Assembly (NCBI GenBank): GCA_009841265.1
Contig: VXMB01000009.1
Location: 229,911 to 293,910, forward strand
Reading direction: 5' to 3'
Length of the DNA stretch: 64,000 nt
Source: Gemmatimonadota bacterium
Lineage (GTDB): Bacteria; JAAXHH01
Position 1 is the first letter of the stretch. The number at the start of each line of letters is the position of its first letter. The notes below the pieces were generated by a model, which worked only from the letters and a program-made list of their open reading frames with translations, made no database searches and was not told where the DNA came from. A program made the translations under genes and the position numbers. Below, piece after piece: positions 16,151 through 36,170 of this stretch.

Positions 16151-17641
16151 ATGGCGGATCAGCCTTACGGCCCCGGCGCCTTCGCCTTCCTGGCCGCCTA
16201 CCTCGTCTTCATGATCGTCCTGGGATACGTGGCCCGGTCCCGCCGCCGGGACGATTCCATGTCCTCCTTCTACCTGGCGGGCAAGAACCTGGGCGCCCTG
16301 GTTCTCTTCTTCACGCTCTACGCGACCCAGTACAGCGGAAACACGCTCATCGGCTATCCAGGCGAGGCCTACCGGCTGGGATACGCCTGGATCATGAGCG
16401 TCGGTTTCATGATGGCCATCGTGGTGGCCTACCTGCTCTTCGCGCCGCCGCTCTACCGCGCGTCGCAGCGGGGCAACTTCGTGACGCCGGGCGACTGGAT
16501 CACCCATCGATTCGGTGCGGACGGAAGATCCGGACTGACCCTCTTCGCCGGCGTGCTGTTCGTGGTCGCCATCGCCAACTACCTGCTCGCGCAGCTCCTG
16601 GCGGTTGGGCACATCGTTTCCGGCCTGTCTGGCGGCGCCATTCCGTTCTGGGCGGGCGTGGTGATCCTCGCGGTCATCATCCTGTTTTATGAGACCCTCG
16701 GCGGCATGCAGGCCGTGGCGTGGACCGACTGCATCCAGGGCCTGCTTCTCTTCGTCGGCCTGCTGGGCATGCTGGCCGCCGTGGTCGCGGGGAGCGACCG
16801 CCTCGGTGAAGCGACGGCGTGGATCATCGCCCATCAGCCTGCGAAAGCCGCGCTTCCCGAGGGAGAAACGATCCGTACCTGGATCAGCACCATCCTGCTG
16901 GTCGGCTTCGCCGCCGCCGTCTATCCCCAGGCCATACAACGCATCTTCGCCGCCCGGAGCACCCGCAGCCTGAAGCGGTCGTTCACCTTCATGGCCTTCA
17001 TGCCCCTGGCCACCATCTCGGCGGTCGTGCTCGTCGGGATCCTCGCCATCCCGCAGCTATCGGGCCTGGAGGGTGTCGAAACCGACCAGGTCATGCCCCG
17101 CCTGCTTCGGGTCTGGGCCGCCGAATCGCTCTGGCTCTACGTCATGACCGTGCTCGTCCTCACCGGCATCGTCGCGGCGATCATGTCGACGGCCGACTCC
17201 GTCCTGCTCAGCCTCTCTTCCCTGCTCGTCAAGGACGTGCTGGGCCGGTTCCGGATGGGTTCGCTCCCGGAAGCGCGCCATACCGCGTGGGGGAAGCGCC
17301 TGTCCTGGATCATCATGGCCATCCTGGTCCTCATCGCCCTGACGCCGGATCTCACCCTGTGGGGACTCATCGAGCTGAAGATGGAGGTGCTGATCCAGAC
17401 TGCCCCGCTGTTTGTACTTGGGGTGCTGTGGCCGCGATTCAGCGCGTCAGGCGCGGCCGCGGGCATGGCCGCGGGCACGGTACTCGCGGCCGGGCTGACC
17501 CTCGCGGGCATGGGCAAGGTCTGGGGCTGGCACGCCGGCGTGCTGGGCCTTGCGCTGAACGTGATTGTGGGGGTGGCGGTGAGTTGGGCAGGGCGTTCCC
17601 ATCGGTTCAGATCACCGAATATACTTGACTTTTGTAACTAA
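16151..17641 (+). CDS. sodium:solute symporter (SSS) family transporter
   Basis: 496 aa; 13-14 TM helices; SSS-family N-terminal region (YLAGKNLGALVLFFTLYATQYSGNTLIG). Confidence 0.8.
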   Translation: MADQPYGPGAFAFLAAYLVFMIVLGYVARSRRRDDSMSSFYLAGKNLGALVLFFTLYATQYSGNTLIGYPGEAYRLGYAWIMSVGFMMAIVVAYLLFAPPLYRASQRGNFVTPGDWITHRFGADGRSGLTLFAGVLFVVAIANYLLAQLLAVGHIVSGLSGGAIPFWAGVVILAVIILFYETLGGMQAVAWTDCIQGLLLFVGLLGMLAAVVAGSDRLGEATAWIIAHQPAKAALPEGETIRTWISTILLVGFAAAVYPQAIQRIFAARSTRSLKRSFTFMAFMPLATISAVVLVGILAIPQLSGLEGVETDQVMPRLLRVWAAESLWLYVMTVLVLTGIVAAIMSTADSVLLSLSSLLVKDVLGRFRMGSLPEARHTAWGKRLSWIIMAILVLIALTPDLTLWGLIELKMEVLIQTAPLFVLGVLWPRFSASGAAAGMAAGTVLAAGLTLAGMGKVWGWHAGVLGLALNVIVGVAVSWAGRSHRFRSPNILDFCN

Positions 17642-17705
17642 ATGACATATATTAGTCGCTACGTCGGAACATAGTCGGATGTCAATTTTCGAAAGGAGTA
17701 AAATC

Positions 17706-17957
17706 ATGAGAAGTGGCGATGAAATGTTAAAGCAGATCGTAGAGAAGTCCTCCCTGGATTCGGATTTCAGGCAAAAGCTGATCGCGGACCCGAAGTCGAC
17801 CATCTGTGAGGAACTGGACATTACGATGCCGGAATCCATGTCGATCCAGGTCCACGAAAGCGATATGCAGACGGTACATATCGCACTGCCCCCGGATGCG
17901 AATATCACCGAGGAGCAGCTTGAAGCCGTCTCGGCCGGACTCTGCTGCTGCTGGTAA
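17706..17957 (+). CDS. NHLP (nitrile-hydratase-leader-peptide) family RiPP precursor; predicted core LCCCW
   Basis: ORF 17679..17957; strong RBS aggag 7 nt before the second ATG (17706); leader KQIVEKSSLDSDFRQKLIADPKSTICEELDITMPESMSIQVHESDMQTVHIALPP...EEQLEAVSAG matches the NHLP consensus, including the EAV-[AS]-[GA]-G double-Gly-type cleavage site; followed by LCCCW-stop. Confidence 0.7.
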   Translation: MRSGDEMLKQIVEKSSLDSDFRQKLIADPKSTICEELDITMPESMSIQVHESDMQTVHIALPPDANITEEQLEAVSAGLCCCW

Positions 17958-18013: not shown

Positions 18014-18063
18014 ATAAAAAAAGTCCTCCCCGATCATCCTGGTCGAGGAGGACTTTTGCTTTG
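18014..18063. terminator. bidirectional rho-independent terminator between convergent genes
   Basis: AAAAAAAGTCCTCC-(18-nt loop)-GGAGGACTTTTGCTTT; perfect 8-bp GC-rich stem flanked by an A-run and a T-run. Confidence 0.6.
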
Positions 18064-19228: not shown

Positions 19229-21667
19229 TTACACGATGACCGGTGCGGGGTTCAATTCGGCCTCGGTCAGGGGTTGATTGCGAAAGCCCATGTCGACCGG
19301 CACGTCGTACAGGCGCCCCGGGGCGAATCTCGCCCAGAAATGGCGCATGCCCGGTACGATGACCCGCGCCACCGGCATGCCGATGTCCGGCCGGGTCTGG
19401 TCCAGCACGAGGAACTCCATGCCCCTGGCTTCGATCAGCGCGCGGCAGCAGTCCACGTCTTCCCGTGTATCCGCGGTCTCGATCGCCGGATACTGCGCGG
19501 CCTGCCTGAGCGGCGCGTCCGTCGACGGCGCCAGCCAGGCACAATCGGCGATTCGAGCCGTCTTCCACCAGTTTAGCGCCATGGGATCGTCGATCATGGG
19601 CTGGTTAGGTCGACCGGATCGGCCAGACTGTGCGGGCTGACCGGTTAGTCCGGACCGACCCGATTGACCGCCGCCTACGCTTCCACCGGGCCGGGGAAGC
19701 CACGTCAGGCACTGGTTCAACTCGCATAAGGCGCGCAGGGCCGCCAGTCGCGGGTCGGCATGGGCGCCCGCGCCGTATATGATGTCCTCGGTTTCCGCGT
19801 CCGGCCGCCGGGAAAGCGCAACGAAGGACGGAATGCCCGTATCGGACGTCACGTCGAGCATCCAGACCTCCCGCTCGCATCGTCCGTAATAGTCCGTGGC
19901 CGACGCGAGGAATGGGTCGTCAAAGCTGGAGAGATCCACCCCGGGGACGCTCAGCCGGTTATACCACCAGATGGCGAAGGCATCGCGCTCGACCAGTTCA
20001 TAGAAACCCTGCAGGATGGCCTCCTCCAGGGTGTTCCCCGCGGCGCAGCCGTTGGAATCGGCAATCACTTCGGCGGGTCCGCGCTGTTCCGGCGCCATGC
20101 TGTAGAGCATCGACGTCGGCAGGTATCGATGCCGTCCTTGCGTGAACGACCACACGGGCGTCCAGTCGATTTCGGCGGCGGGATTGAAACGAGGCGGGAC
20201 GATGTTGTAGGGGTGGCCTGCCGTGTTGATGCTTTCCGCGTTGTCGAGCTGGTCGTTACTGAACAACTGCACGTCGTTGGGGTGGATCGCCCGGTCTTCG
20301 GCGGCGAAATCGACGAATTGACCGCGGGTACGGATTTCGTCTCCGCTAAAAGCGCCTGAATGACGTTCGATCGCCTCGCAGAGGGCACTGGTCTCGGACT
20401 GTTCCCGCGTACTGCCCTTGCCGGCGCTTTTGCTGCGCAGGCTGCGCCTGAGCGAACTCAGGCTCCGGCTTCTCATACCGGGATTGCTCCCGGCCCAGTA
20501 GACGTGAAGCCAGGCGTCATGCTCACTGGTCGTGCGCGCCAGCCAGGTTACGATGCCGCTTACCGGGCTCACAAGGTGGCGGTATTGCGCCAGGGTGGCT
20601 TCCGGCGTCACGGCCCGCGCACCGCCGCTGTTGCGGTGGAGTTTGGGGCTGGCCTTGAGACGCAGCGGCACCGGCGGCCGGTCGGGCCGGTGCAGCGCTT
20701 CTTCGCCGCAGGCCGGACATTGCGGCCGGCGCAGGACCGTATGCGTCGAGCTCGCGACCGCGCCGACATGCAACGAAATTGCCTGTCCGTCGATCGGCGC
20801 CGATTCCTCCAGCACCAGCCACTTGACGATTTCAGCCGAAACCAGCCCGTATACCGCCTCAAGCGCGACAGGTTCGGCGGCGAACGGCTTGAAGGCGGCA
20901 TCCTCGCCGGCAACGTGCCGAAGGAACTGGTGGGCCTCCTTGTGGCCCCGTAGCCGGTGGGCCAGGCAGTCCCAGCAGGGGCCCTTCCGGTCCGCGTGAA
21001 AGACGGGTCCGAACAGCGCCTCCATGCCGTGCGGACGCACCAGCATCCACGGCGCTCCCGCCTCGAGCCGGCACCGATTCACCGCTGCAAACCGCGCGTC
21101 GAGGTAATCGTCGCATACGATAACCTTGAGCTGGACGTCGTCGTCGGCCACCACGTCGGCCACCACGCCGGCGCCGCTCGTTTCCAGCTGCCGGGACAGC
21201 CTTCCGTCGTCGCCGTCGACAGCGACGCGCGAATCCGCCAGCCGTTGTTCGACCCATCGGGGCGATGCGCCGAGGGACGTCCAGTATGCCGCCCGGGACC
21301 GGTCCATGCCATGATCGGCGGAGATGACATAGCCCCGGTCGGAGAGCGAAACGATCGCCGCGCGCACATCGGCCGCGGCATAGCGGCCCTCGAGGTCGGC
21401 GACGATGCCGGCCAGGGGACAGCGGCCGTCGAGAAGAGGAAGCAGATCGCAAAGCAGGGCGCCGTGCAGCAGTGTATCGAAGGACTCGGAAACCAGCAGC
21501 GTCTGCTGTGCGCCGATGACGTGGGATCGCAAGTGCGGGGTAAGCGCGGGAAGATCGACGAGGCCCAGGTCATCGGGGGTCGTTCTCGTGAGTTTCCCCT
21601 GGCGGGCATTCTTGCTGGTCGTCCCTGGCGTCCCGGGTTCCCGCGTCTTCTCGGCAGGCGCTTTCAT
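19229..21667 (-). CDS. fused E1-like docking domain / YcaO cyclodehydratase (TOMM heterocyclase, PatD/TruD-like architecture)
   Basis: 812 aa; N-terminal half with CxxC pairs (CWDC, QCPACG); C-terminal YcaO domain with LVSPVSGIV, SNGCAAGNTLEEAILQGFYELVERDA and a Pro-rich C-terminus; 4-nt overlap with the upstream gene. Confidence 0.8.
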   Translation of the reverse strand: MKAPAEKTREPGTPGTTSKNARQGKLTRTTPDDLGLVDLPALTPHLRSHVIGAQQTLLVSESFDTLLHGALLCDLLPLLDGRCPLAGIVADLEGRYAAADVRAAIVSLSDRGYVISADHGMDRSRAAYWTSLGASPRWVEQRLADSRVAVDGDDGRLSRQLETSGAGVVADVVADDDVQLKVIVCDDYLDARFAAVNRCRLEAGAPWMLVRPHGMEALFGPVFHADRKGPCWDCLAHRLRGHKEAHQFLRHVAGEDAAFKPFAAEPVALEAVYGLVSAEIVKWLVLEESAPIDGQAISLHVGAVASSTHTVLRRPQCPACGEEALHRPDRPPVPLRLKASPKLHRNSGGARAVTPEATLAQYRHLVSPVSGIVTWLARTTSEHDAWLHVYWAGSNPGMRSRSLSSLRRSLRSKSAGKGSTREQSETSALCEAIERHSGAFSGDEIRTRGQFVDFAAEDRAIHPNDVQLFSNDQLDNAESINTAGHPYNIVPPRFNPAAEIDWTPVWSFTQGRHRYLPTSMLYSMAPEQRGPAEVIADSNGCAAGNTLEEAILQGFYELVERDAFAIWWYNRLSVPGVDLSSFDDPFLASATDYYGRCEREVWMLDVTSDTGIPSFVALSRRPDAETEDIIYGAGAHADPRLAALRALCELNQCLTWLPRPGGSVGGGQSGRSGLTGQPAQSGRSGRPNQPMIDDPMALNWWKTARIADCAWLAPSTDAPLRQAAQYPAIETADTREDVDCCRALIEARGMEFLVLDQTRPDIGMPVARVIVPGMRHFWARFAPGRLYDVPVDMGFRNQPLTEAELNPAPVIV

Positions 21668-24105
21668 GCGTGTGCGGCGAGCGTATCGATCCGGGCGGCG
21701 GCGCGGGTGGCGGTTTCGTCGACCGCCGACGCCAGCGCATCGAAGTCCTGCTGCCCGCAGGCGTTCGCCACCAGGGATTTGACCTTCGCTCCCGCCGTTG
21801 CCGCGTCGAATCCGTCCTCTCCGACCAGCCGCATGACCCCCTGCAAGTCACGCCACAGGTTAGCGGCTTGCGCCAGCGGCTCGTCGCCGGCGGCATCGAA
21901 CACCGCCACGGCGGACGGCGCAGGATCGTCGAGGAAGTCACCGGCACGGTTCAACTGCAGGAAGCGCGCGGCCTGCTCGACATCGTTCAATCCGCCGGGC
22001 ATCTGGGCGTATGCGGACACACTCGTCTCTGCGCGGCCTGCCGGCTGTCCGCCCGATCCGGCGTACACCGCCGCGTCCGTACTGCATTCGGCCAGGACCC
22101 GGCGCCGCGCATCATCAAAGCGGCTTCCGATGCCGGAACCCTCGGTCTCGAAGACACAACGGGTCCGGGTGAGCACGGGAACCCCGCCGGAAGCCGGGTC
22201 ACGGGCTTGCTCGGCCAGATCGGAGAGCGATACCGCTGGCATGGCCTCCACGCCGGCGGAGACCGGGGAGAACAACAGGTTGTCCTGCGCCAGGTCGGCC
22301 AGGGCCTTGCGGAAACTCCGGCACAGGCGTTCATTCGCGCCGGACTGCGCGCCGTCATGGACGAACAGCATGTCGACCGCTACGCCGGGATAGGCTTCCC
22401 GGCTGGCCAGATCACCCAGGAAGATGGCGGCGACCTCGCCCACGCTGTCCGTGCCGTACCGCTCGCCGAAATCCGCCACCACGGAGGCAAGCACCGTCGA
22501 AACCGACGCTTCGGAGAGATTGGACAGCGCCGTCCGCGCCTCCGCCGGGAGCAGGTTTCCGCGCACCACGTGCATGCCGATCTGAAACGCCTTGTCGTTC
22601 GACCAGTTCCGCACGATCTCGGCGGTTTCCCTCGCGTCGACCACGGGCAACTCGACGATCAGGTCCTTCATTTCCTGAACGCCCATTTCGTAGGTCCAGT
22701 AGACCCGTGCAAGCCCGCGCCTTGCGATCGACTCGAACTCCTCGTCCTGCTCGAATCCCTTGGGCAGGTCGAGATCGAGGAATTCCTGTTCCTGCAGGTT
22801 ATCCAGGAGCTCCGGGTTCCGTTCGATCCATTTCGCGAGCCGCGGCGCGGCGCCAAATATCTCGACGATCATGTCAAAGGCGTCGGGACGCTTCGCGGCA
22901 AGGGGACTGTCGTAGACGCTCCAGTCTTCGATCTCCGGGTAGAAGTGCTTGCGCCACTGGTCCACCAGCGGGTCCATCTTTTCAAACCACTTTTTGGGCT
23001 TCAGGACGATGTTCATCATATCGGAGTAGGTGCCTGGCAGTTCCGGCGATTCGTCGAGACTGACCTGCAGCAGGGGATACTGGCGGGATGCCACCGCGTG
23101 ATGGTCGGCATGTCGCTGCGCATTGAAAAGCATCCAGTTGCTGAACTTCCAGTCGGCACTCCAGGAATGGCGGGGCATGATCTTCTCCCACCGGCCGTTT
23201 TCCAGGCGGACCCGGCGCAGGCCGTAGTGCTGGAAGTAGTTGCTGATCTTCATCGAAAAGACGCAGGACAGGCCGAGGAAGGCGAAGACCGGGACCGCCC
23301 AGATCCCGCCCATCCAGAAAACCAGTGCGTACCAGAACGCGACGCCGAAGCCGTAGCGCCAGAAGGGATTGCTGTAATGCCACATGGTCCGGCGGCGCCG
23401 TGCCAGGCGTTCTCGTGCCACTTCCCATGAATTGACGAGGTTGCTGACGATTTCCTTGGGCATGTACCGCCAGAAACTCTCCCCCTTCGGCGCGGACCCC
23501 ACGTCGTAGGGCGTGCCGACCAGGGCGTGGTGGATATAGACGTGCTCCGTGGCATACTGCGGATAGGAAGCGGAAGACAGCAGGAACTCGCCGATCCGGC
23601 GTTCCCAGGTCGTGCGCCGGTGAATCAGTTCGTGGCCTACCACGAACACGGCCTGTGCTTCCATCGTCAGTATGATGGCCAGCACAACGTCCTGCCACCA
23701 GACGAAGGGATCCGCCACCAGGATCTGCCACAGGCCGAAGACCAGGGTGGGCGGCCACAGAAACGCCCATGACCAGACCGGCAGATTGTGCCAGATCAGG
23801 CGGTGTTTCGGCGTCTTCCACGGATCCATTATGCGTCCGTCCCGTCCGAACACCCGGTCGAAGGACCAGGAAAGACTCATGAAGACCATGGGCGGCAGGA
23901 GCCACCATCCGCCCCACAACGCGGCGAGCAGAATCAACGGGAAAACGCCCAGCGGCAGGTAATGCGGGAGGGCGGTCAGGATGGACGGCTCGATCTCCTG
24001 CGTTGCATCGGCCTGGCCCGGTCCGGTGCCATTGGTTTCAGCGCGGTCGATTTCAACTGGATTTTGTGACATGGCTACACCTCCTTGGTCAGCATAACCT
24101 GGCAC
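21664..24105 (-). CDS. fusion: AlkB-like integral-membrane di-iron hydroxylase/desaturase (N) + GlnE-like nucleotidyltransferase domain (C)
   Basis: 813 aa; His boxes HELIHRR, EHVYIHH, NYFQHYGL and LFNAQRHADHHA align with the AlkB HELGHK/EHNRGHH/NYIEHYGL/LQRHSDHHA motifs; C-terminal FLGDLASREAYPGVAVDMLFVHDG matches the GlnE/GlnD NTase motif G-x-L-x-x-RE...D-x-D-L-x-F. Confidence 0.65.
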   Translation of the reverse strand: MPGYADQGGVAMSQNPVEIDRAETNGTGPGQADATQEIEPSILTALPHYLPLGVFPLILLAALWGGWWLLPPMVFMSLSWSFDRVFGRDGRIMDPWKTPKHRLIWHNLPVWSWAFLWPPTLVFGLWQILVADPFVWWQDVVLAIILTMEAQAVFVVGHELIHRRTTWERRIGEFLLSSASYPQYATEHVYIHHALVGTPYDVGSAPKGESFWRYMPKEIVSNLVNSWEVARERLARRRRTMWHYSNPFWRYGFGVAFWYALVFWMGGIWAVPVFAFLGLSCVFSMKISNYFQHYGLRRVRLENGRWEKIMPRHSWSADWKFSNWMLFNAQRHADHHAVASRQYPLLQVSLDESPELPGTYSDMMNIVLKPKKWFEKMDPLVDQWRKHFYPEIEDWSVYDSPLAAKRPDAFDMIVEIFGAAPRLAKWIERNPELLDNLQEQEFLDLDLPKGFEQDEEFESIARRGLARVYWTYEMGVQEMKDLIVELPVVDARETAEIVRNWSNDKAFQIGMHVVRGNLLPAEARTALSNLSEASVSTVLASVVADFGERYGTDSVGEVAAIFLGDLASREAYPGVAVDMLFVHDGAQSGANERLCRSFRKALADLAQDNLLFSPVSAGVEAMPAVSLSDLAEQARDPASGGVPVLTRTRCVFETEGSGIGSRFDDARRRVLAECSTDAAVYAGSGGQPAGRAETSVSAYAQMPGGLNDVEQAARFLQLNRAGDFLDDPAPSAVAVFDAAGDEPLAQAANLWRDLQGVMRLVGEDGFDAATAGAKVKSLVANACGQQDFDALASAVDETATRAAARIDTLAAHA

Positions 24106-24136: not shown

Positions 24137-25438
24137 TCAGGTTCGCAGGAAGGCGGCTAAACGCTCGAGCGCTTCGATACAGAACGCGGTGGTCACGGCT
24201 TCGGAGCCATGGCCTATTTGTCCTACCGCGCCGAACTTCAGTGTCTGATCGCCGAAGGCGAGCAGTTCCGGCCAACTGCCGTCCCCGCGTTGCGCGGTCA
24301 GGATGCGCCTCAACGGCCGCGTCGCGTCGGTCCTTTCCAGGCATCCCGCGTCGCAGAGCGTCGACACGGCCTGGGCGGTCTGCAGGACGTTGCCGTAACC
24401 GCCCTCTTCGTCCGCCAGGCCCAGGACACGATCCGCGAGGACCGGGCGCAGCCGATCCAGGGCGGGCGACACGCGTCGCACGGCCCGGGCGACCGCGTAA
24501 CAGATCGCGATCTCGTCGGGGTACCACTTGGACGCGTCCTTGAGATCGCCTTCGGTGATCAGCGCCTCCAGCCATCGCTGGGCATCCCTGGTTTCCGGGC
24601 AGTCGCCGAGCCAGGCGATGACGTTTGCGTTGACTACGGGGTCGGCTTCGATGCGAAATCGCGACACGACATCGGGTTCGTCGCCCTCCAGCATCCAGGT
24701 CATGAAGCGGCCTTCCCCATCGCGGTTCGCCAGTATCCGAGGTATGTTCCTCCCCAGCAGGATCCAGGGGTGCGTTCCGATCACCAGGGAACAGAGCGAG
24801 GTGCTGTCGAGATCCTGGGGAAGATGACGGTAATAGCGCCAGAATCCGGGATATTCGATGGTGTCGACCAGATAAGTGCTGGTCGCGGTGCAGATGGATC
24901 TGGCCTTCGCTTCCCGGCAATTTTCCAGGGCAAGGACGCAGAACGCCGAAATGAAGGGAGGCCTTTCGAAGTGCCGCGGCACCTTCGGATCGGCCACGTT
25001 GAACCGGATGCAGTGCCAGGCGCCATGCTCGTCTATCGTCGACTCAAGGAAGTCAAGGCCACGGCGGATGCTTTCTCTGGCCGCTTCCGCCAGCACCTCG
25101 GCGCCGGCGTCGCTACCGGGGACGCGCCCCGCCTCGTCACCCGGCGGCCGTAGGGGCGGGGCGGGATCGTGCATGGTCTTGCGCAGAAACGCGAAGGACG
25201 ACGCGCCGGTGCGCGCCTCCTCCCGTTCCTCCCTGGTAAATCGGTTGCGAGGGGGCAGGACGATATGGGTCGCGGCGGCGGTCTCTTCGTGCACGTGAAT
25301 CTCGTGGTCTTCAGCCATCGTCACGCCGAACTCCTGCTCGATGGTCTCTTTGGGCCTGGCAAGGAGACGTTTCCTCAATTCGTCGTCGTCGCCCGCTTTC
25401 AAGATAAGTAAATCGACCGCATTAGAGGACTTTTTCAT
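24137..25438 (-). CDS. NHLP-leader-like N-terminal domain fused to an alpha/alpha-toroid (prenyltransferase/terpene-cyclase-like repeat) domain
   Basis: 433 aa; the N-terminus DLLILKAGDDDELRKRLLARPKETIEQEFGVTMAEDHEIHVHEETAAATHIVLPP is NHLP-like but has no GG/core; the C-terminus carries repeated ...EEGGYGN...Q / ...RGDGSWPE...G-hairpin-like motifs. Confidence 0.55.
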   Translation of the reverse strand: MKKSSNAVDLLILKAGDDDELRKRLLARPKETIEQEFGVTMAEDHEIHVHEETAAATHIVLPPRNRFTREEREEARTGASSFAFLRKTMHDPAPPLRPPGDEAGRVPGSDAGAEVLAEAARESIRRGLDFLESTIDEHGAWHCIRFNVADPKVPRHFERPPFISAFCVLALENCREAKARSICTATSTYLVDTIEYPGFWRYYRHLPQDLDSTSLCSLVIGTHPWILLGRNIPRILANRDGEGRFMTWMLEGDEPDVVSRFRIEADPVVNANVIAWLGDCPETRDAQRWLEALITEGDLKDASKWYPDEIAICYAVARAVRRVSPALDRLRPVLADRVLGLADEEGGYGNVLQTAQAVSTLCDAGCLERTDATRPLRRILTAQRGDGSWPELLAFGDQTLKFGAVGQIGHGSEAVTTAFCIEALERLAAFLRT

Positions 25439-25488: not shown

Positions 25489-28440
25489 TCAGGCGATTTG
25501 CCGCCTGATCAGTTCCTTGAATACCCCGTCGGTCTCCTTCAGTTCGTTGAAAGAGCCGCTTTGGACGACCTTGCCGGCTTTCAGCACGTAGATGCGATCG
25601 GCCTGCTCGAGCGTGGACAGGCGATGGGCGATGACGAGGCGAGTGGAAGTCAGCGCGGCCAGGTTCCGCATCACGCTGGACTGGTTCTCGTTGTCCAGCC
25701 AGTTCGTCGCCTCGTCGAACAACATGATACGCGGGCTGCCGATCACCGAGCGGGCGATCGTGATGCGCTGGCTCTCGCCGCCCGACAGAACGGAACCGCT
25801 GGTGCCCACCATGGTCATCATGCCCATGGGCATGGCCTTGATCTGGTCTTCGACCTCGGCGGTCCGGACCGCCGCCCATACTTCATCGGTCGACACGCCT
25901 TCATAGTGGCTGACGAGGTTGTCCCAGAGATCCTGGGGATGGAGTCCGACCGATTGGGGTACCGCGCCGATCTTCCGGCGCACCTGTTTCAGATTCAGGT
26001 GCCTCAGGTCGCGCCCGTCGTAGTATACCGCCCCGGCGGTCGGCCAGTCGATGCCGAGCGCAAGCCGGAACAGGGTGCTCTTCCCGGCGCCGGATTCCCC
26101 GGCAATGGCGACGAATTCGCCGGGATGAGCGCGAATCGTTACGTCGTCGAGGATCAGTGGTCCGTCGGCGTCGTAGCGGAAAGAAACATGATCGAACAGG
26201 ATGTCCCCGCCCAGGTATTCGACCGGTTCGCCTTCCGTACCCGTCTCAGGCGCCGCCGAAAGCAGCGGACGCATCTGCTCGAAGGCCGGCAGCATGGAGG
26301 CCAGGGCGCCGATGGACTCGCCGAGCCGGGCGATGGTGGACTGAAACACGATGAAGACCGTGTAAACGACGAGAAAATCGCCGACCGGCATGTTGCGATC
26401 TCCCGCCTCCATTACCGTGAACAGGAGCACGCCGGCGGCAAGGAATGGCAGTGCGGCACCAAATGCCCGAGAATGCCCCTCCAGTGCGCCCAGTTCGATC
26501 TCCGCGCGCTTCTGTGCGCGATAATCCCGTGCCCAGATGGCGTAAGCCGAACCTTCCGCGTTATCCATGCGCAGCTTGGAAATGCCCCCCACGATCTGGA
26601 AGAGCCGGCCGGCCACGCGCCGGGCCGCCCTGATCATCCATCCGTATGGAGAGATCTGGCGCAATCCCAGCACCAGGGTGACCAGCAGCGAAACCAGGCT
26701 GAAGAGGAGGGTGACGATCCCGAGGGTGGTGTCGTAGAAGAAGATGACGCCGAAAACCGGAAGCAGGAATACCAGCGACAGGAAACAGTTGGCGACGACC
26801 CCCCGCAATCCGTCGCGGAGTTGCTGAAAGGTCATTCCCGACATGGCCAGGTCGCCCGCCGGATTGCGGTGCAGCATGCCGGGTGGAAGACGCATGAGAC
26901 GGTCCCAGAAGGCGGCTTCGACTCGGGAGGCCGAGCGCCCCTCCAGCCGCATCATCGCCATGTTCTGGAGCAGGTGCAGCATTGCGCCGAGCAGGCCGAA
27001 GGCCGCAATCGCCACGGCGACCGCGTATAGCATTCCAGCGCTTCCACCCGTCGTGATGTGGTTCGCTACGTACCCGAGGGCGAGCGCCGGCAGCAGCCGG
27101 ATCATGCCGTATGGAAGCCCGGCGATCACCATCCGTGCCCAGTCCGAGGCCGAGCCGCGCAGGGCGATGCCCAGCAGGTCCGCCGGTTTCACACCCCTTG
27201 CCGGCAGGGGCTGATAGAACATCCAGGCCTCTTCCGCCAGCGCGTCCGAACCGGCCAGGCGGGCCGCCGAGACCCGTGTGCGTCGATTGCCGGCCGGGTC
27301 AATTTGACGGTATCGTCCGAACATGCCCGGCAGCAGCGCCACGGGCCGACCGTCGTCGGCGCGGTAGGCCAGCAGCGCGTTGCTGTCACCGTGCCACCAG
27401 CGGTCCTCGGCGTTGAAACGCACGCGCCGGGCGCGCACGCCGGAAGCGTCAAGTATGTCCACGAGGCCGACGGGGGTTTCGGATTGGCCCGATCGCGCCG
27501 GGATCTTGAAATCGATGCCTTCATGACGGCCGATCAGCTGCAGGGCATCCGCAAGTGCCGTATCCTCGGCACCGTCATCCCGGTCGGTCGGAAGGTCGTA
27601 GATATTGTAGAGTCGCTGACGCGCGGTGTTCTCGGCCGTTCGGCGGCTCGCTGTCCGCGCCCGTTCGAGATTGACGGCATCTACAACGACCAGCCGGCGG
27701 TTCAGGCGCTCCAGGGTGAATGCGACCGCGTGGAACGAGGCGAGTGCCGCCAGCAGCCTGCCCTGCCGGGCCAGTGTTTCCGTTGACTGACCGGTCAGCG
27801 TCGCCTCGTCGACCAGGGTGAGCCAACTCGTCCGGGCCAGCGGGATGACCGTCTCGTGGGGGCTGCCCGTCTCCGCAAGTTCCGCCGTGTCGACGATCCC
27901 CATGAACAGGCCCGCGCCGGACGGCGGTTCAGAGATCCATACCACGCCGCGACGGACGGACAACGTACAGGGCGCCAGCGTCTGCGTCAGGCCGGGTTCG
28001 GCCAGCGCGGTCGGACGGGGAGGGGGGATGGCGAAACGCGCCAGCGTCTCCGTAATGGCGGTCAGCCACGTGTCGGTCTGTTCCGCCAGTTCCGCTGGAT
28101 CCACCCGGGACAGCAGGGAAGCCGGCAGACGCTTGAGCAGGGTGCCCGGCATTCCCCTGGCGATGATACTGAGCGTGGTGTCTGTTTCACCGCCCAACCG
28201 GTGCGGCGCGACCCCCGGCAGCAGCCAGCCCGATTCCCGGCGCAATAAGTGCTGCGGCGCCGCCTGCTCCGTCCCGTTTTTGAGTTCGACCAGGAACAGG
28301 TTGACGACGCCCTGGTCGATGAACCAGACGCTGTCCCGGTCGTCGAGGTAGACGGGCAGGTTACCTGCGCAGGGCACGGATTCGCCGAAGCGATCGGCGA
28401 GTTCGGCCAATGGCGAGTATTTCGGTTCGTTGGGCTGCAT
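25489..28440 (-). CDS. NHLM-type bacteriocin ABC transporter, second ATP-binding/permease subunit with a cNMP-binding-like N-domain (no peptidase)
   Basis: 983 aa; N-terminal ~150 aa non-peptidase domain, 6-TM permease, Walker A GESGAGKST, signature LSGGESQRITIARS, Walker B IMLFDEAT. Confidence 0.75.
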   Translation of the reverse strand: MQPNEPKYSPLAELADRFGESVPCAGNLPVYLDDRDSVWFIDQGVVNLFLVELKNGTEQAAPQHLLRRESGWLLPGVAPHRLGGETDTTLSIIARGMPGTLLKRLPASLLSRVDPAELAEQTDTWLTAITETLARFAIPPPRPTALAEPGLTQTLAPCTLSVRRGVVWISEPPSGAGLFMGIVDTAELAETGSPHETVIPLARTSWLTLVDEATLTGQSTETLARQGRLLAALASFHAVAFTLERLNRRLVVVDAVNLERARTASRRTAENTARQRLYNIYDLPTDRDDGAEDTALADALQLIGRHEGIDFKIPARSGQSETPVGLVDILDASGVRARRVRFNAEDRWWHGDSNALLAYRADDGRPVALLPGMFGRYRQIDPAGNRRTRVSAARLAGSDALAEEAWMFYQPLPARGVKPADLLGIALRGSASDWARMVIAGLPYGMIRLLPALALGYVANHITTGGSAGMLYAVAVAIAAFGLLGAMLHLLQNMAMMRLEGRSASRVEAAFWDRLMRLPPGMLHRNPAGDLAMSGMTFQQLRDGLRGVVANCFLSLVFLLPVFGVIFFYDTTLGIVTLLFSLVSLLVTLVLGLRQISPYGWMIRAARRVAGRLFQIVGGISKLRMDNAEGSAYAIWARDYRAQKRAEIELGALEGHSRAFGAALPFLAAGVLLFTVMEAGDRNMPVGDFLVVYTVFIVFQSTIARLGESIGALASMLPAFEQMRPLLSAAPETGTEGEPVEYLGGDILFDHVSFRYDADGPLILDDVTIRAHPGEFVAIAGESGAGKSTLFRLALGIDWPTAGAVYYDGRDLRHLNLKQVRRKIGAVPQSVGLHPQDLWDNLVSHYEGVSTDEVWAAVRTAEVEDQIKAMPMGMMTMVGTSGSVLSGGESQRITIARSVIGSPRIMLFDEATNWLDNENQSSVMRNLAALTSTRLVIAHRLSTLEQADRIYVLKAGKVVQSGSFNELKETDGVFKELIRRQIA

Positions 28441-30650
28441 CAGTTCGACCTGACCAGTTTGTAGTACGTGCTGTCCCGGTCGGCGATCAACTCGTCGTGC
28501 GTGCCCCGTTGTACCGTAATGCCCTGGTCCAGCACGATGATCTCATCGCAGTCCCGCACGGTACTCAGGCGGTGCGCCACGATCAGGCAGGTGACCCCGC
28601 GCCGCCGCAGCGCATCATCGACGTATTCCTCCGTGGCCGCATCGAGGGCGCTGGTGGCCTCGTCCAGGATGAGCACCGTGGGGTTGCCCACCAGCGCGCG
28701 GGCGATTTCCAGCCGTTGGCGCTGGCCGCCGCTGAAGTTCGCCCCTCCTTCTTCGACGAGCGTCGCATAGCCGTGGGGCCTGAGCAGGACTTCGTCGTGA
28801 ATCTGGGCGTCCCGCGTCGCGGCAAAGAGGACTTCGTCCGGGATGGCCGGGTTCCACAGCGTGATATTGTCGCGCAGGGACGCGGAAAAGAGCACGATCT
28901 CCTGGTCCACCATGGAGATGGATTGCCGCAGCACCTCCTCGGGGATCTGATCGCGCAAATGGTCGTCAAACATGATCTCGCCCGACCAGGGCTGGTAGAC
29001 CCCCGATACAAGCCGCGCGAGGGTCGATTTGCCGGATCCGCTTGGACCGACCACGGCGATCCGCTGGCCCGGTTTGATCTCGAGGCTGAAGTCCTTGATC
29101 AGGGGCGGCCGGCTCCGGTTGTAACCGAAGGTGACGTTACGCAGTTCCAGCTGGCCGGCGAGCTGGAGCCGGCCGTTGAACGTGTGTATCGCATCCGATT
29201 CCGGGTTTCTGCGACGAAAGACCGGATCCTCATCGGTTTTGGATATGTCCTCGAGCCGTTGCAGATCGGTTTCGAGGGCCTGGCGGTTTTCGGCGAACTC
29301 CAGGAAGCGCTCGACGGGGGCCAGGAACATCTCCGCCAGGATGAAGAATCCCACCAGCATGCCCAGCGACATTTCTCCCTGCATGACCATCATGCCGCCG
29401 ATGCCCAGGATCGCCGCACTGCGCAGCGCGTCGACCAGTCCCGGCAGCGAGGCGTTGACGGAGCCCAGTTCCGAATACAGCTGTCGTGCGCGCAACTCCC
29501 GGGCCTGTTGCCCGCTCCATCGCGAGAAAAACCGGTCGTCCGCCCCCGTCATCCGCAGATTGTCGGCATGGCTCAGCATCTGCATGCCGAGACCGATCAG
29601 CAACCCCTGCTCCCGCCTCATCGTCTGACTGCGGACGGCTCTGAGGTTGTTGAGAAAACGGGCAAGCACCGCGTGCAGCAGCGCCAGCACGATCACGATC
29701 AGCGTGAGTACGGTGTCGAAGGCGAACATCGCAATGAGGAACACCGCGCTCATGGCCATGTCGATCACGAGCACCAGGAACTGGTCCGCCAGGTTTTTGG
29801 CGATTCGGTCGGTGGACGACACCCGGTCAGTGATGTCGCCGGCCAGCCTGTTTTCAAAGAACTCCACCGGCAGGCGAAGCAGCCGTGACATCCCGTTGCT
29901 GTAGCCGGCTACCGATACACGGACCGCGAGCCGCTTGAGGAACCGGTGCTTGAGGAGAGACAGGACATACACCAGCACGCCTCCGCCCAGCAAGGCGGTT
30001 ACCAATCCGCCCCAGGTCCCGTGCTTAGCCATGACGTCGTCGACGAAAACGCCGAGCGATGCCGGAACGACCAGGGTCAACATCGTCAGCATGAGTCCGC
30101 AGGCCACCACGCCGGTCAGCAGTCGCCATGACCCGGCGATCAGGCCGTTCAGTTGCCTGAACAGGTCGGGTTGCTCGCCGCCGGGCGTAAAGTCCTCGCC
30201 GCGCTTGAAGCGAAGCGCAATGCCGCTGTAGCTCTTCTCGAACTCTTCGGCGGTGACCCTGCGCCGTCCCGTGGAAGGGTCGTTGAGATAGTAGTAGCGG
30301 CTGTCGATTCCTTCGAGGACGAGGAAATGGCTGAACTGCCAGAACAACACCAGCGGAAATTCCAGCATTTTCAGTTGCTCGGCGCGCACGCTGAGGCCGT
30401 TACACTCGAGACCGTAGTGCCGGGAGGCACGCAGGATGCTCGCGGCACTGCTTCCGTCCCGGCTCACCTCGCATTTTTCCCGCAGTTCGGTGAGCGGCAC
30501 CCATCTCCCGAAGTATCCCAGTACGATGCCGAGACAGGCCGCGCCGCACTCCGATGCGTGCATCTGCAGCAGAACGGGCGTGGATATCCGCTGCGCCGAG
30601 TCGTCCGCGGCGTTCTTGTTGCCGGCTTGTTTGGTCGTGCTCACCGTCAT
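28440..30650 (-). CDS. NHLM-type bacteriocin ABC transporter with N-terminal C39 peptidase domain (leader-cleaving exporter)
   Basis: 736 aa; C39 catalytic Cys context QMHASECGAACLGIVLGYFG, TM domain, Walker A GPSGSGKST, LSGGQRQR, ILDEATSALD. Confidence 0.8.
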   Translation of the reverse strand: MTVSTTKQAGNKNAADDSAQRISTPVLLQMHASECGAACLGIVLGYFGRWVPLTELREKCEVSRDGSSAASILRASRHYGLECNGLSVRAEQLKMLEFPLVLFWQFSHFLVLEGIDSRYYYLNDPSTGRRRVTAEEFEKSYSGIALRFKRGEDFTPGGEQPDLFRQLNGLIAGSWRLLTGVVACGLMLTMLTLVVPASLGVFVDDVMAKHGTWGGLVTALLGGGVLVYVLSLLKHRFLKRLAVRVSVAGYSNGMSRLLRLPVEFFENRLAGDITDRVSSTDRIAKNLADQFLVLVIDMAMSAVFLIAMFAFDTVLTLIVIVLALLHAVLARFLNNLRAVRSQTMRREQGLLIGLGMQMLSHADNLRMTGADDRFFSRWSGQQARELRARQLYSELGSVNASLPGLVDALRSAAILGIGGMMVMQGEMSLGMLVGFFILAEMFLAPVERFLEFAENRQALETDLQRLEDISKTDEDPVFRRRNPESDAIHTFNGRLQLAGQLELRNVTFGYNRSRPPLIKDFSLEIKPGQRIAVVGPSGSGKSTLARLVSGVYQPWSGEIMFDDHLRDQIPEEVLRQSISMVDQEIVLFSASLRDNITLWNPAIPDEVLFAATRDAQIHDEVLLRPHGYATLVEEGGANFSGGQRQRLEIARALVGNPTVLILDEATSALDAATEEYVDDALRRRGVTCLIVAHRLSTVRDCDEIIVLDQGITVQRGTHDELIADRDSTYYKLVRSN

Positions 30651-30657: not shown

Positions 30658-31215
30658 TCACCTCATGAGGAACAGCCCGATCGGAGACTGCCTGCCCAGC
30701 TCGATGACGATCCGGCACTTCATGCCCGCCAGGGATTCCAGATCCCGGTCTTCCGAGAGTGCGGTCTCGAGCGTTATATCGATGCGGTGAACGGATACCG
30801 GCGCCGCGGTCTCAAAGGCGGCCGGCCCGCCCGAGACGGGTTCGGCGGCGATGGCTCTAACCGTTCCGCCGGGTGCGTATGTATCTCCATCCGCCGGCTC
30901 CGGCTCGATCAATACCGGCATCCCGGCCGCGATATCCGGTGCGATTTCACTATTGATCCAGGCGAGGGCCTCTACGGAGATGCCGCCGTCGGGAAGGGTT
31001 TCCCCCTGCTCCACGATGACGCCGTCCACCACGATACTGCGCGCCACGCTGCCGAAGAAAAACCACGCCAGGAGGGCACACAGAAAAACAGCGATCGCGG
31101 CAACCAGCAGCCGTTCCCGCGGCGTGGATATCGTCAGAAGCCGGTCGAGTTGCTCGCGGTCTTCCTTCGCCTCCGCAACGGTTTCATGAAATGAGTTCAG
31201 CAGATTGTTAAACAC
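30658..31215 (-). CDS. HlyD-family secretion adaptor (short NHLM-type)
   Basis: 185 aa; single N-terminal TM helix then periplasmic beta/lipoyl-like segment; position immediately upstream of the two ABC genes. Confidence 0.55.
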   Translation of the reverse strand: MFNNLLNSFHETVAEAKEDREQLDRLLTISTPRERLLVAAIAVFLCALLAWFFFGSVARSIVVDGVIVEQGETLPDGGISVEALAWINSEIAPDIAAGMPVLIEPEPADGDTYAPGGTVRAIAAEPVSGGPAAFETAAPVSVHRIDITLETALSEDRDLESLAGMKCRIVIELGRQSPIGLFLMR

Positions 31216-31428
31216 GGGCGTTTAATGGTCTCCTCATGGTAATTAAGCGGGGTAGTACGCTCACGAGTCGGGCCGGTTTGCATGCTCACGATAGTTAAAT
31301 CCGACCAGTACGATGCATATATTATGATATGTTATATGTTTCAAATCAAGAAATGTCACGCTGTGGACTTCACGGGACGCCGTCGCGGACATCCGGAACA
31401 TGAGCCTTTGATCGGTATCGAGGTTGCC

Positions 31429-32724
31429 CTAAACCGGCGCCTGTCGGCCGGTCCAGCCCAGTCCCTGGGACATCTGTGCGTAACTGGTGAGCGGCACCGC
31501 GCACATCCGGTGCCAGTCGGCTTTGTCGATGACCGGCCGGTTCAGCAGTTCGAGCATCCCATCGAATCTGCCGAGTGCATCGCAATCCACCGCCTCGGGA
31601 TCCATGGCCTTTCGGTGCCGGGGCCAGGCTCGTTCTCGCGCGTGGCGCCAGAACGCGCCGTCGTAAATCGAACCGCAGGCATAGTGCCAGCCGACGAAAA
31701 GGCCGTAGCAGAGCATGTTGTTGATGAGAAACCGGTTGACCGAGGGCGCGTCGCGCCCGAGATGCGCCGCCGGCCGATTGAGGCGCGTCTGGAGCACCAT
31801 CCCGACCTGCAGTTGAGCGGACACGATCGCCGTCGCCTCGAGGGGCTCCATGAAAGCCGCCGCGTTGCCGATGCGGGCCACGGCGCCGTCATAGATCCGG
31901 CGATGGACGAAGTTCGGAAACGGGATGACGGCCCGTTGCTCGAATTCAGCCACGCCGTCGGTCTCCAGGAATGCGTCAAAGTCCGATTCGACTTCCGCAA
32001 GGTCGGATACGTCGCGGTTGAAGATGTACCCGTAAGACGTGTGCACCGTCAACGGAATGACGAATATCCAACCGTGAGGACGGGCAACCGCCCGCGTGTA
32101 GGTATGTTGCCGTACCGGTCCGTTCCGCCCGTCTTCGATGATCGTCGGGCAGCGCCGGATGACGGCGGTATTGGTAGGGATGAAAGAAATGTCGATGTGC
32201 TGATCGGGGTGCAGTTCCTTCGGAAACCCACGGGCATCGAAGACCAGGTCGTAGCGTTCCGACTCCCGGCCCTCGAATTCCACCTGCGCGCCGTCCTCCA
32301 CCCTGGTGATGTCGAGCACTTTCGCGTCGATGTGGCGCGCGCGCGTGCCTTCACGCAGCAGGTCCGCCATCAGGTCGGCGGACAGGTGGTAGGCGTAAGA
32401 CACTTGCTGTGGGGTGAAGTAGTGGGTGAAATCCCGGTCGCGCCGGCCCCATCCCTCGAAGGCGACACCGTACTTGCGTGTGCCCTTCAAACGTTGCTGG
32501 ACGGTCTCATGGGGCAGCCCCGTCAGTTTCTGCAGTTCCTGCACCAGGCTCGGCCAGCTGCCTTCTCCCACCCCGATGACCGGAATGCGCGAGTCATAGA
32601 TGTGGTGCAGCTCGTGGTCGCCGTCGGGGTGAAGACGCGTTACGCTGGCGGCCGCCAGGGATCCTGCGGTCCCCTGCCCGATAACGGCGATCTTCCGTAA
32701 CGATTCCGCGCCCGGCTGGATCAT
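31429..32724 (-). CDS. flavin-dependent halogenase family (tryptophan-halogenase-like) protein
   Basis: 431 aa; FAD motif IAVIGQGTAGSLAA, IGVGEGSWP (cf. GVGEAT), GWIFVIPL (WxWxIP with the second W replaced by F), AAAFMEPLEATAI (cf. FIEPLESTGI). Confidence 0.65.
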   Translation of the reverse strand: MIQPGAESLRKIAVIGQGTAGSLAAASVTRLHPDGDHELHHIYDSRIPVIGVGEGSWPSLVQELQKLTGLPHETVQQRLKGTRKYGVAFEGWGRRDRDFTHYFTPQQVSYAYHLSADLMADLLREGTRARHIDAKVLDITRVEDGAQVEFEGRESERYDLVFDARGFPKELHPDQHIDISFIPTNTAVIRRCPTIIEDGRNGPVRQHTYTRAVARPHGWIFVIPLTVHTSYGYIFNRDVSDLAEVESDFDAFLETDGVAEFEQRAVIPFPNFVHRRIYDGAVARIGNAAAFMEPLEATAIVSAQLQVGMVLQTRLNRPAAHLGRDAPSVNRFLINNMLCYGLFVGWHYACGSIYDGAFWRHARERAWPRHRKAMDPEAVDCDALGRFDGMLELLNRPVIDKADWHRMCAVPLTSYAQMSQGLGWTGRQAPV

Positions 32725-36158: not shown

Positions 36159-36170
36159 ATCATACCTCGT

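What the first reader, a model, noticed from the sequence alone, without database searches (positions are those of the whole stretch)
31429..32724. Trp-halogenase-family flavoprotein with atypical signature motifs heading the RiPP operon
GQGTAG FAD motif, GVGEGSWP and FMEPLEATAI match flavin-dependent halogenases. The WxWxIP motif reads GWIFVIPL (second Trp to Phe), and the ExxxTG-type motif has A for S/G substitutions. The only aromatic target in the predicted core is the C-terminal Trp. A 213-nt gap containing an AT-rich stretch separates this gene from hlyD, so it may have its own promoter region. The divergent WxWxIP motif could mean altered chemistry (the motif is thought to suppress mono-oxygenation).
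Basis: partly seen in the sequence, partly recalled or inferred. Interest (0 to 1): 0.7.

Follow-up and report, generated by a model that had tools for sequence, protein, structure and literature searches.

The report
Known sponge-symbiont peptide brominase SrpI
The gene is an intact ortholog of SrpI, an already characterised enzyme from marine-sponge bacteria that adds bromine to the last tryptophan of a small ribosomal peptide, so the "odd" motifs are normal for its family and the finding is ordinary.

Summary

It is not an unusual enzyme. It is 83% identical over its full length to the published, biochemically characterised RiPP brominase SrpI. GVGEGSWP, GWIFVIPL and FMEPLEATAI are identical, as are the catalytic Lys84 and the leader-binding loop P105-S109.

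The rest of the srp cluster is also in the window. It includes an 83-aa NHLP precursor ending in the published core LCCCW (17706-17957, plus strand), a YcaO cyclodehydratase and a C39-peptidase/ABC exporter.

The "atypical" WxFxIP and EPLEAT variants are the norm in a large clade of compact (about 400 aa) halogenases. Among 112 cluster representatives, 98 have Phe at the second Trp position, 108 keep the Lys and 100 keep the Glu.

A confident AlphaFold model (pLDDT 92.6) matches only flavin-dependent halogenases in its top 50 PDB hits.

Relatives at 79-95% identity occur in MAGs labelled as many different phyla, as already published for srp clusters.

Verdict: already known, low interest. The idea that the motif change alters the chemistry is unsupported, although SrpI is reported to be an obligate brominase.

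The parts
31429..32724 (-). srpI ortholog: a 431-aa two-component flavin-dependent peptidyl-Trp halogenase (brominase)
   Evidence: PF04820 151.5 bits. 83% identity over 426 aa to the published SrpI sequence. K84, E296 and the loop P105-S109 are conserved. AF2 model with pLDDT 92.6 has only flavin-dependent halogenases in its top 50 PDB matches.
31216..31428 (-). 213-nt relatively AT-rich spacer between srpI and the exporter genes; probably the promoter region of the hlyD-ABC unit
   Evidence: 48.8% GC with a 40-nt stretch of 82.5% A+T. One promoter-like site, no more than chance gives. Most of the 19 loci with co-directional srpI and hlyD have gaps of about 170-230 nt at 45-56% A+T. In 38 of 57 loci the hlyD unit is divergent from srpI, so it must have its own promoter.
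30658..31215 (-). short HlyD-like NHLP-system secretion adaptor (185 aa)
   Evidence: TIGR03794 N-terminal match. Both ends align to a 291-aa homolog in L002, but the middle ~120 aa are missing.
28440..30650 (-). NHLP bacteriocin export ABC transporter with an N-terminal C39 peptidase (leader cleavage and export)
   Evidence: TIGR03796 867 bits, above its cutoff of 853; Peptidase_C39 + ABC_membrane + ABC_tran domains.
25489..28440 (-). second NHLP export ABC permease/ATPase subunit
   Evidence: TIGR03797 649 bits (below its cutoff of 709); ABC_membrane + ABC_tran domains.
24137..25438 (-). 433-aa protein with an NHLP-leader-like N-terminal domain fused to a large domain of unknown function; conserved srp cluster member
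   Evidence: TIGR03793 42.6 bits (below cutoff) at residues 9-66; weak SQHop_cyclase_C hit. PDB hits to nitrile hydratase alpha subunits and to the NHLP structure 8tb1. Found in 58 of 81 related loci.
21664..24105 (-). 813-aa fatty-acid-desaturase domain fused to a GlnE-like nucleotidyltransferase region; conserved srp cluster member, role unknown
   Evidence: PF00487 89.8 bits plus weak GlnE hits. Present in 42 of 81 related loci.
19229..21667 (-). SrpC-type fused YcaO cyclodehydratase (812 aa) that would convert the three core Cys residues to thiazolines
   Evidence: PF02624 311 bits; TIGR03604 278 bits; TIGR03882 leader-binding domain 138 bits. The role of SrpC is described in PMC10286304.
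18101..19219 (-). 372-aa conserved protein with no family match, last gene of the minus-strand run
   Evidence: No Pfam or NCBIfam hit. A 372-aa gene sits at the same position next to YcaO in L002/L003. Present in 36 of 81 loci.
17706..17957 (+). srpE precursor (83 aa, 252 bp): NHLP leader, ITEEQL recognition motif, Ala-Gly cleavage site, core LCCCW
   Evidence: TIGR03793 61.8 bits, above its cutoff of 50.9. 63 of 83 residues identical to published SrpE, with the same core. The LCCCW core and the 252-bp gene size are reported for srp clusters.
17625..17653 (+). promoter-like site upstream of srpE (TTGACT-17-TATATT, 10 of 12 matches)
   Evidence: This is a consensus match only.
18019..18057 (+). 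hairpin followed by a T-run after srpE; a likely intrinsic terminator
   Evidence: Fold of -24.7 kcal/mol, z = -4.5 against shuffles, followed by UUUUGCUUU.

Best explanation
The gene encodes an ortholog of SrpI, the leader-dependent flavin-dependent halogenase of the "sponge-derived RiPP proteusin" (srp) clusters.

**Proposed pathway**
1. The 83-aa precursor SrpE (NHLP leader plus core LCCCW) is made from its own small gene.
2. The fused YcaO enzyme (SrpC type) turns the three Cys residues into thiazolines.
3. SrpI binds the short helix carrying the I/LTEEQL motif near the end of the leader, through its surface loop 104-110.
4. SrpI takes FADH2 from an unlinked flavin reductase and forms the flavin hydroperoxide, which oxidises bromide to HOBr.
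5. Guided by Lys84 (with Glu296), it brominates indole C6 of the C-terminal Trp.
6. The C39-peptidase ABC exporter, with the second ABC subunit and the short HlyD-like adaptor, then cleaves after the Ala-Gly site and exports the small brominated azoline peptide.

**Shown versus inferred**
- Shown in the literature for SrpI itself: bromination but no chlorination, C6 regiochemistry, dependence on the leader, loss of activity in K84A, and the requirement for the Trp at or next to the C-terminus.
- Inferred here by 83% orthology and identical functional residues: that this copy does the same.
- Inferred only: the order of steps, the export step, and the roles of the other conserved genes.
For: - **Identity to SrpI.** BLASTP gives 83% identity (352 of 426) to the SrpI sequence printed in the supplement of PMC10286304. 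GVGEGSWP, GWIFVIPL, FMEPLEATAI, K84 and P105QQVS109 are all identical. The residue numbers match those in PMC10858898 for the catalytic Lys84 and the leader-binding loop 104-110.
- **Precursor.** It ends in AGLCCCW and is 76% identical to SrpE. LCCCW is the defining srp core.
- **Partner genes.** A YcaO cyclodehydratase and a C39/ABC exporter lie in the same gene run.
- **Conserved gene set.** The same genes recur around orthologs in other MAGs. 34 of 80 loci have an srpE within 10 kb, and all 34 have the core LCCCW.
- **Catalytic residues.** K84 and E296 align to PrnA K79 and E346 and to the equivalent residues of solved halogenases.
- **Fold.** The AF2 model has pLDDT 92.6. Its top 50 PDB matches are all flavin-dependent halogenases, including MibH, at TM 0.72-0.80.
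- **Published biochemistry of SrpI.**
Against: - No experiment exists on this particular ortholog, and 17% of its residues differ from the tested enzyme.
- The precursor leader carries ITEEQL rather than the tested LTEEQL. ITEEQL is, however, the consensus reported in sponge metagenomes and occurs in 32 of 34 loci here.
- No flavin reductase was found among the ORFs scanned.
- The mature natural product of srp clusters is still cryptic.
- The original 2021 paper could not be read, so halide specificity and regiochemistry are taken from later papers by the same group.
Confidence: 0.93

Rival explanations
1. It is a conventional free-tryptophan halogenase, the "tryptophan 7-halogenase" named in the public annotation. 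It would make halo-Trp as a building block and would not act on a peptide.
For: NCBI names the identical protein "tryptophan 7-halogenase". PF04820 is the best family. The best fold matches are Trp 5-, 6- and 7-halogenases.
Against: - Identity to those enzymes is only 18-22%.
- The protein is 431 aa, against the 476-528-residue chains of its top fold matches. It has 12 residues where PrnA has 60, between query positions 100 and 112.
- Its 83%-identical relative SrpI does not brominate free Trp and needs the leader peptide.
- It sits in a cluster with a Trp-terminated NHLP precursor.
Confidence: 0.03
2. The Trp-to-Phe change in WxWxIP has turned it into a flavin monooxygenase that hydroxylates the peptide Trp (QhpG-like chemistry) rather than a halogenase.
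For: The second Trp of WxWxIP is Phe. There is a weak NCBIfam hit to the Trp-hydroxylating QhpG, 25.2 bits.
Against: - The QhpG score is far below its cutoff of 240.
- The halogenase-specific Lys and Glu are conserved.
- SrpI has the identical GWIFVIPL motif yet brominates, and its K84A mutant is dead.
- No monooxygenase appears in the top 50 fold matches.
Confidence: 0.02
3. It is a decaying or non-functional copy, uncoupled from its precursor gene 13.5 kb away.
For: The precursor is distant and on the other strand. A defence island abuts the gene upstream. The adjacent HlyD-like gene is shortened.
Against: - The ORF is intact, with the same start (MIQPG...) as SrpI.
- All catalytic and binding residues are invariant across 28 orthologs.
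- Closely related MAG loci have the same co-directional srpI-exporter arrangement.
- srp genes are reported to be actively transcribed across phyla.
Confidence: 0.01

Closest known systems
SrpI, the obligate peptidyl brominase of the srp cluster from the Smenospongia aurea sponge metagenome (Nguyen et al. 2021; PMC10286304, PMC10858898)
   Same: - 83% identical over the full length.
- Identical FAD motif type, GVGEGSWP, GWIFVIPL and FMEPLEATAI, K84 and loop P105-S109.
- Same precursor core LCCCW.
- Same partner enzymes (YcaO) and C39/ABC exporter.
   Different: - 74 of the 426 aligned positions differ (including 4 gaps), and the C-terminal tail is 5 residues longer.
- GQGTAG instead of GRGTAG.
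- The precursor leader has ITEEQL instead of LTEEQL.
- The host is labelled a Gemmatimonadetes MAG.
- This copy is untested.
MppI, the SrpI-like lanthipeptide brominase from Moorena producens (PMC11791876)
   Same: Found by mining with SrpI. It is a leader-dependent brominase of a peptide Trp with no chlorination, and its catalytic Lys is essential.
   Different: It acts on a macrocyclic lanthipeptide at indole C5, uses a Nif11-type leader, and contacts the whole leader. Its sequence could not be obtained for comparison.
MibH, the lanthipeptide Trp 5-chlorinase (PDB 5UAO)
   Same: Flavin-dependent halogenase fold (TM 0.78). It acts on a Trp within a RiPP, and the Lys and Glu are conserved.
   Different: About 22% identity and 519-541 aa. 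It has the canonical GWCWTIPT motif. It is a chlorinase and works only after the leader is removed.
PrnA / RebH / PyrH free-tryptophan halogenases
   Same: Same fold, GxGxxG, catalytic Lys (PrnA K79) and Glu (PrnA E346), and the two-component FADH2 mechanism.
   Different: About 20% identity. They have a strict WxWxIP motif and EPLES(T/S)G. They are 50-100 residues longer, including a ~48-residue insertion at the place where SrpI has its leader-binding loop. Their substrate is free Trp.

Membership tests
SrpI-type leader-dependent RiPP brominases (srp clusters) | Full-length sequence orthology to the characterised SrpI | tested here: met
   BLASTP 83% identity, 352 of 426, 4 gaps, score 714 bits, against the sequence printed in the supplement of PMC10286304.
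SrpI-type leader-dependent RiPP brominases (srp clusters) | Catalytic Lys84 (the K84A mutant is inactive in the literature) | tested here: met
   K84 is present at the same number. It is invariant in 28 orthologs and in alignment A2, and present in 108 of 112 clade representatives. It aligns to PrnA K79.
SrpI-type leader-dependent RiPP brominases (srp clusters) | Leader-binding surface loop, residues 104-110 (P105 Q106 Q107 V108 S109) | tested here: met
   T104-P-Q-Q-V-S-Y110 is identical to SrpI. P105, Q106, Q107 and V108 are invariant in 28 orthologs.
SrpI-type leader-dependent RiPP brominases (srp clusters) | Clustered with an NHLP (proteusin) precursor whose core is LCCCW, and with a YcaO cyclodehydratase | tested here: met
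   srpE lies at 17706-17957 and ends in AGLCCCW, scoring 61.8 bits on TIGR03793 against a cutoff of 50.9. The YcaO gene lies at 19229-21667.
SrpI-type leader-dependent RiPP brominases (srp clusters) | L(X)4L recognition motif in the leader | tested here: inconclusive
   The window has I-TEEQ-L, not L-TEEQ-L. ITEEQL is the reported consensus in sponge metagenomes and occurs in 32 of 34 loci here. Only the Leu form and the Ala double mutant have been tested biochemically.
SrpI-type leader-dependent RiPP brominases (srp clusters) | Obligate bromination (no chlorination) at indole C6 of a C-terminal Trp, dependent on the leader | not testable with these tools
   This needs an in-vitro or co-expression assay. 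It is known for SrpI only.
Flavin-dependent halogenases (PF04820 fold) | Profile match above the curated cutoff, GxGxxG FAD site, and the conserved Glu of EPLE (PrnA E346) | tested here: met
   PF04820 151.5 bits against a cutoff of 21. G16xG18xxG21 is present. E296 aligns to PrnA E346. The fold matches 50 of 50 halogenases.
Canonical free-tryptophan halogenases (PrnA/RebH/PyrH type) | Strict WxWxIP motif, and the extra substrate-binding elements of a protein of about 510-550 aa | tested here: not met
   The motif is W219-I-F221-V-I-P. The protein is 431 aa and has 12 residues where PrnA has 60, between positions 100 and 112.
QhpG-type flavin monooxygenases acting on peptide Trp | NCBIfam NF049967 score above the cutoff of 240 | tested here: not met
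   25.2 bits.

The most novel reading that the evidence does not exclude
The WxFxIP plus EPLEAT signature is not noise. It would mark a large, mostly uncharacterised clade of compact (about 400 aa) halogenases that act on leader-bearing peptides. On this reading, the Phe replacing the second Trp contributes to the obligate-brominase phenotype seen in SrpI, and reportedly in MppI, by reshaping the tunnel between the flavin and Lys84.

My data show only the following:
- The signature is clade-wide: 98 of 112 representatives have Phe.
- The one member whose sequence I could check is a brominase.
Probability: 0.1. Interest if true: 0.5.

Novelty: already known. Interest (0 to 1): 0.12.

Why it matters
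It matters little as a discovery. The enzyme family, its substrate, its catalytic lysine, its mode of leader recognition and its wide distribution across sponge-symbiont phyla have all been published since 2021.

The useful outcomes are practical:
- The public annotation of this protein as "tryptophan 7-halogenase" is misleading. It should read SrpI-type peptidyl-Trp brominase.
- WxFxIP and EPLEAT can serve as a quick sequence signature for this compact peptide-halogenase clade.
- The window provides a complete srp locus from a MAG labelled Gemmatimonadetes, with the precursor placed 13.5 kb from the halogenase. Genome miners using short flanks would miss that link.

Tried and rejected
- **First AlphaFold run.** The alignment of 28 orthologs (83-93% identical) gave a useless model (pLDDT 42.8). 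A 103-sequence alignment spanning 23-92% identity fixed this (pLDDT 92.6). Model coordinates are not exposed, so the K84-E296 distance could not be measured.
- **Original paper.** The 2021 JACS paper (PMC8780398) is not held. Facts were taken from later papers of the same group.
- **Literature on the motif.** A search for papers mentioning both WxWxIP and SrpI found none, so I could not learn whether the Phe variant has been discussed.
- **MppI sequence.** It is not in the held supplement, so its motif could not be checked.
- **Precursor search.** My first regular expression for precursors in related loci assumed a Gly-Gly/Gly-Ala boundary and found nothing. A corrected pattern found 34.
- **Flavin reductase.** None was found among roughly 30 ORFs scanned. 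This is normal for two-component halogenases.
- **Promoter in the gap.** The site in the 213-nt gap is no better than chance on its own. The argument for a promoter there rests on comparative gene order.
- **Rejected readings.** Free-Trp halogenase, monooxygenase and pseudogene; see the rival explanations.

Full report
**1. What is at the coordinates**

Window 31429..32724 is one ORF on the minus strand, ATG to stop, 431 aa.
- GQGTAG at residues 16-21
- GVGEGSWP at 51-58
- GWIFVIPL at 218-225
- FMEPLEATAI at 291-300

It scores 151.5 bits (E 4.6e-44) on Pfam PF04820 Trp_halogenase, whose cutoff is 21 bits. The stop codon is followed by a 213-nt spacer (31216-31428). The spacer is 48.8% GC in a region of about 60-63% GC, and it holds a 40-nt stretch of 82.5% A+T. 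After the spacer comes a 185-aa HlyD-like gene.

**2. What it is**

A literature search for RiPP halogenases acting on a C-terminal Trp led to SrpI. This is the flavin-dependent brominase of the "sponge-derived RiPP proteusin" (srp) clusters.

PMC10858898 names the catalytic residue as Lys84 and the leader-binding surface loop as residues 104-110 (P105, Q106, Q107, V108, S109). The window protein has K84 and P105-Q-Q-V-S109 at exactly those numbers.

The supplement of PMC10286304 prints the SrpI and SrpE sequences. BLASTP of the window protein against that SrpI gives 83% identity (352 of 426) with 4 gaps. Identity is perfect across GVGEGSWP, GWIFVIPL, FMEPLEATAI, K84 and the loop.

The exact window protein is in NCBI as MXX04907.1 / MYD25359.1. 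It comes from Gemmatimonadetes MAGs and is annotated only as "tryptophan 7-halogenase".

**3. The rest of the cluster is present**

The precursor gene lies at 17706-17957 on the plus strand and encodes 83 aa from 252 bp:

MRSGDEMLKQ...PPDANITEEQLEAVSAG-LCCCW

It scores 61.8 bits on TIGR03793, the NHLP leader model, whose cutoff is 50.9. It is 76% identical to published SrpE and has the same core. The LCCCW core, and even the 252-bp gene size, are reported hallmarks of srp clusters.

The minus-strand genes between the precursor and the halogenase are:

| Coordinates | Product |
|---|---|
| 18101-19219 | conserved 372-aa protein with no family match |
| 19229-21667 | fused YcaO cyclodehydratase (SrpC type) |
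| 21664-24105 | fatty-acid-desaturase / GlnE-like fusion |
| 24137-25438 | 433-aa protein with an NHLP-like N-terminal domain |
| 25489-28440 | NHLP export ABC subunit |
| 28440-30650 | NHLP export ABC subunit with a C39 peptidase |
| 30658-31215 | short HlyD-like adaptor |

**4. Are the motifs atypical?**

They are atypical only relative to free-tryptophan halogenases. An exhaustive HMMER search of 1.84 billion cluster representatives returned 2153 relatives. I aligned the 112 full-length ones among the best 150, together with SrpI and PrnA.

| Query position | Clade representatives (of 112) | PrnA equivalent |
|---|---|---|
| K84 | Lys in 108 | K79 |
| F221 (second Trp of WxWxIP) | Phe in 98, Trp in 11 | Trp |
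| E296 | Glu in 100 | E346 |
| A297 | Ala in 101 | Ser |

About half of the 11 representatives with Trp are long proteins of 500 aa or more. The Phe-bearing proteins have a median length of about 400 aa. Between query positions 100 and 112, PrnA has 60 residues where this clade has 12. That is the site of the SrpI leader-binding loop.

The PrnA numbering was checked on a PrnA sequence recalled from memory. Its length of 538 aa equals that of the PDB chain.

WxFxIP and EPLEAT are therefore clade signatures. The one clade member with published biochemistry whose sequence I could check is a genuine halogenase.

**5. Structure**

AlphaFold2 on a shallow ortholog alignment failed (pLDDT 42.8). On a diverse 103-sequence alignment it gave pLDDT 92.6 and pTM 0.92.

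Foldseek against the PDB returned flavin-dependent halogenases only in the top 50, at TM 0.72-0.80 and 18-22% identity. They are SttH, PyrH, MibH, PrnA, AbeH, Tar14, RebH, Thal, BrvH, Xcc4156, VirX1, Th-Hal and several putative tryptophan halogenases.

Sequence search of the PDB agrees. It aligns K84, W219/F221 and E296 with the corresponding residues of solved halogenases. The weak NCBIfam hit to the Trp-hydroxylase QhpG scores 25 bits against a cutoff of 240 and is negligible.

**6. Distribution and gene order**

A scan of one genome per GTDB species found 188 genomes encoding a relative. The best 80 are 79-95% identical, and all are MAGs. Their labels include Gemmatimonadetes, Latescibacterota, Alpha-, Gamma- and Deltaproteobacteria, Binatia, Acidobacteria, Nitrospinota and Opitutales. 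This repeats the published conclusion that srp clusters are spread across sponge-symbiont phyla.

Within ±10 kb of the halogenase, 34 of 80 loci carry an srpE. All 34 have the core LCCCW, and 32 have ITEEQL. This is a lower bound, because in the window the precursor lies 13.5 kb away.

Gene content is conserved but gene order is not.
- In 19 of 57 informative loci, hlyD-ABC1-ABC2 is on the same strand as srpI. Most of these, like the window, follow srpI after a spacer of about 170-230 nt at 45-56% A+T.
- In the other 38 loci, the exporter unit is transcribed divergently from srpI.

The exporter unit therefore has its own promoter in most genomes. This makes the AT-rich 213-nt spacer here a likely promoter region for hlyD-ABC, not for the halogenase. 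The single sigma-70-like match in the spacer is no more than chance gives. "Heading the operon" is thus a local arrangement, not a property of the system.

**7. Mechanism**

*Published for SrpI*:
- It is a two-component enzyme supplied with FADH2 by a separate reductase (RebF in vitro).
- It brominates and does not chlorinate.
- It modifies indole C6 of the C-terminal Trp.
- It requires the leader in cis.
- It does not act on free Trp.
- It tolerates the Trp only at, or one residue from, the C-terminus.
- It is inactivated by K84A.
- Its leader recognition needs only the L(X)4L motif near the end of the leader.

*Inferred for this ortholog*: the same reaction on its own SrpE, after or alongside thiazoline formation by the YcaO enzyme. 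Cleavage after Ala-Gly and export by the C39/ABC system would follow.

No flavin reductase was seen in the window. This is usual for such enzymes.

**8. Verdict**

The gene is a bona fide but already known kind of enzyme, in an already described and widely distributed cluster. The suggestion that the motif variants signal new chemistry is not supported.

The only residual open point is whether the clade-wide Phe contributes to bromide specificity. I could find no discussion of this and could not test it.

Noticed in passing
window 24137-25438 (-): A 433-aa protein starts with an NHLP-leader-like domain (residues 9-66; TIGR03793 42.6 bits, below cutoff; PDB hits to nitrile hydratase alpha subunits and to the NHLP structure 8tb1). 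This domain is fused to a ~350-aa domain with only weak squalene-hopene-cyclase-like hits. It is conserved in 58 of 81 related srp loci. A leader-like domain fused to a possible enzyme is unusual, and its role is unknown to me.
   Followed up: partly
window 21664-24105 (-); also two copies in L002 (1140-3536 and 17312-19771): An 813-aa fusion of a membrane fatty-acid-desaturase domain (PF00487, 89.8 bits) with a GlnE-like nucleotidyltransferase region. It is conserved in srp loci, and no role is evident.
   Followed up: partly
window 30658-31215 (-): The HlyD-like secretion adaptor is only 185 aa. Its two ends align to the 291-aa homolog in a Gammaproteobacteria locus, but the middle ~120 residues are missing. 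By general knowledge of HlyD-type adaptors, that missing part would be the helical hairpin.
   Followed up: partly
window 32838-48203 (-): Directly upstream of srpI lies a defence island. It holds HmaC (32838-36158), HmaB methylase (38020-41292) and HmaA helicase (44532-48203), interrupted by a PDC-M07A/MAD3-like ATPase (36740-38023) and a TIR (ThsB-like)/STAND protein (41351-43816). GC falls to 42-48% at 41-44 kb. Only one other of the 81 related loci compared has the DUF499 gene next to srpI, so the island is a local insertion.
   Followed up: partly
window 17625-17653 (+) and 18019-18057 (+): srpE has a good promoter-like site (TTGACT-17-TATATT, 10 of 12 matches). It is followed by a strong hairpin with a T-run (-24.7 kcal/mol, z = -4.5). 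This fits the reported very high transcription of the 252-bp precursor gene as a separate unit.
   Followed up: partly
window 17706-17957 (+); loci L019-L083: The leader recognition motif is ITEEQL rather than the biochemically studied LTEEQL. ITEEQL occurs in 32 of 34 srpE genes found near orthologs, and the core LCCCW is invariant in all 34.
   Followed up: yes
window 18101-19219 (-): A 372-aa protein with no Pfam or NCBIfam match sits next to the YcaO gene. A gene of the same size occupies the same position in other srp loci, and it is present in 36 of 81 loci.
   Followed up: no
window 12112-13338, 52096-53217, 56350-57477, 57474-58679: Three enolase-superfamily (MR_MLE) genes and a second stand-alone fatty-acid desaturase lie elsewhere in the window, along with NHL-repeat proteins at 15048-15890 and 49912-52032. 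They are probably unrelated housekeeping or symbiont genes.
   Followed up: no
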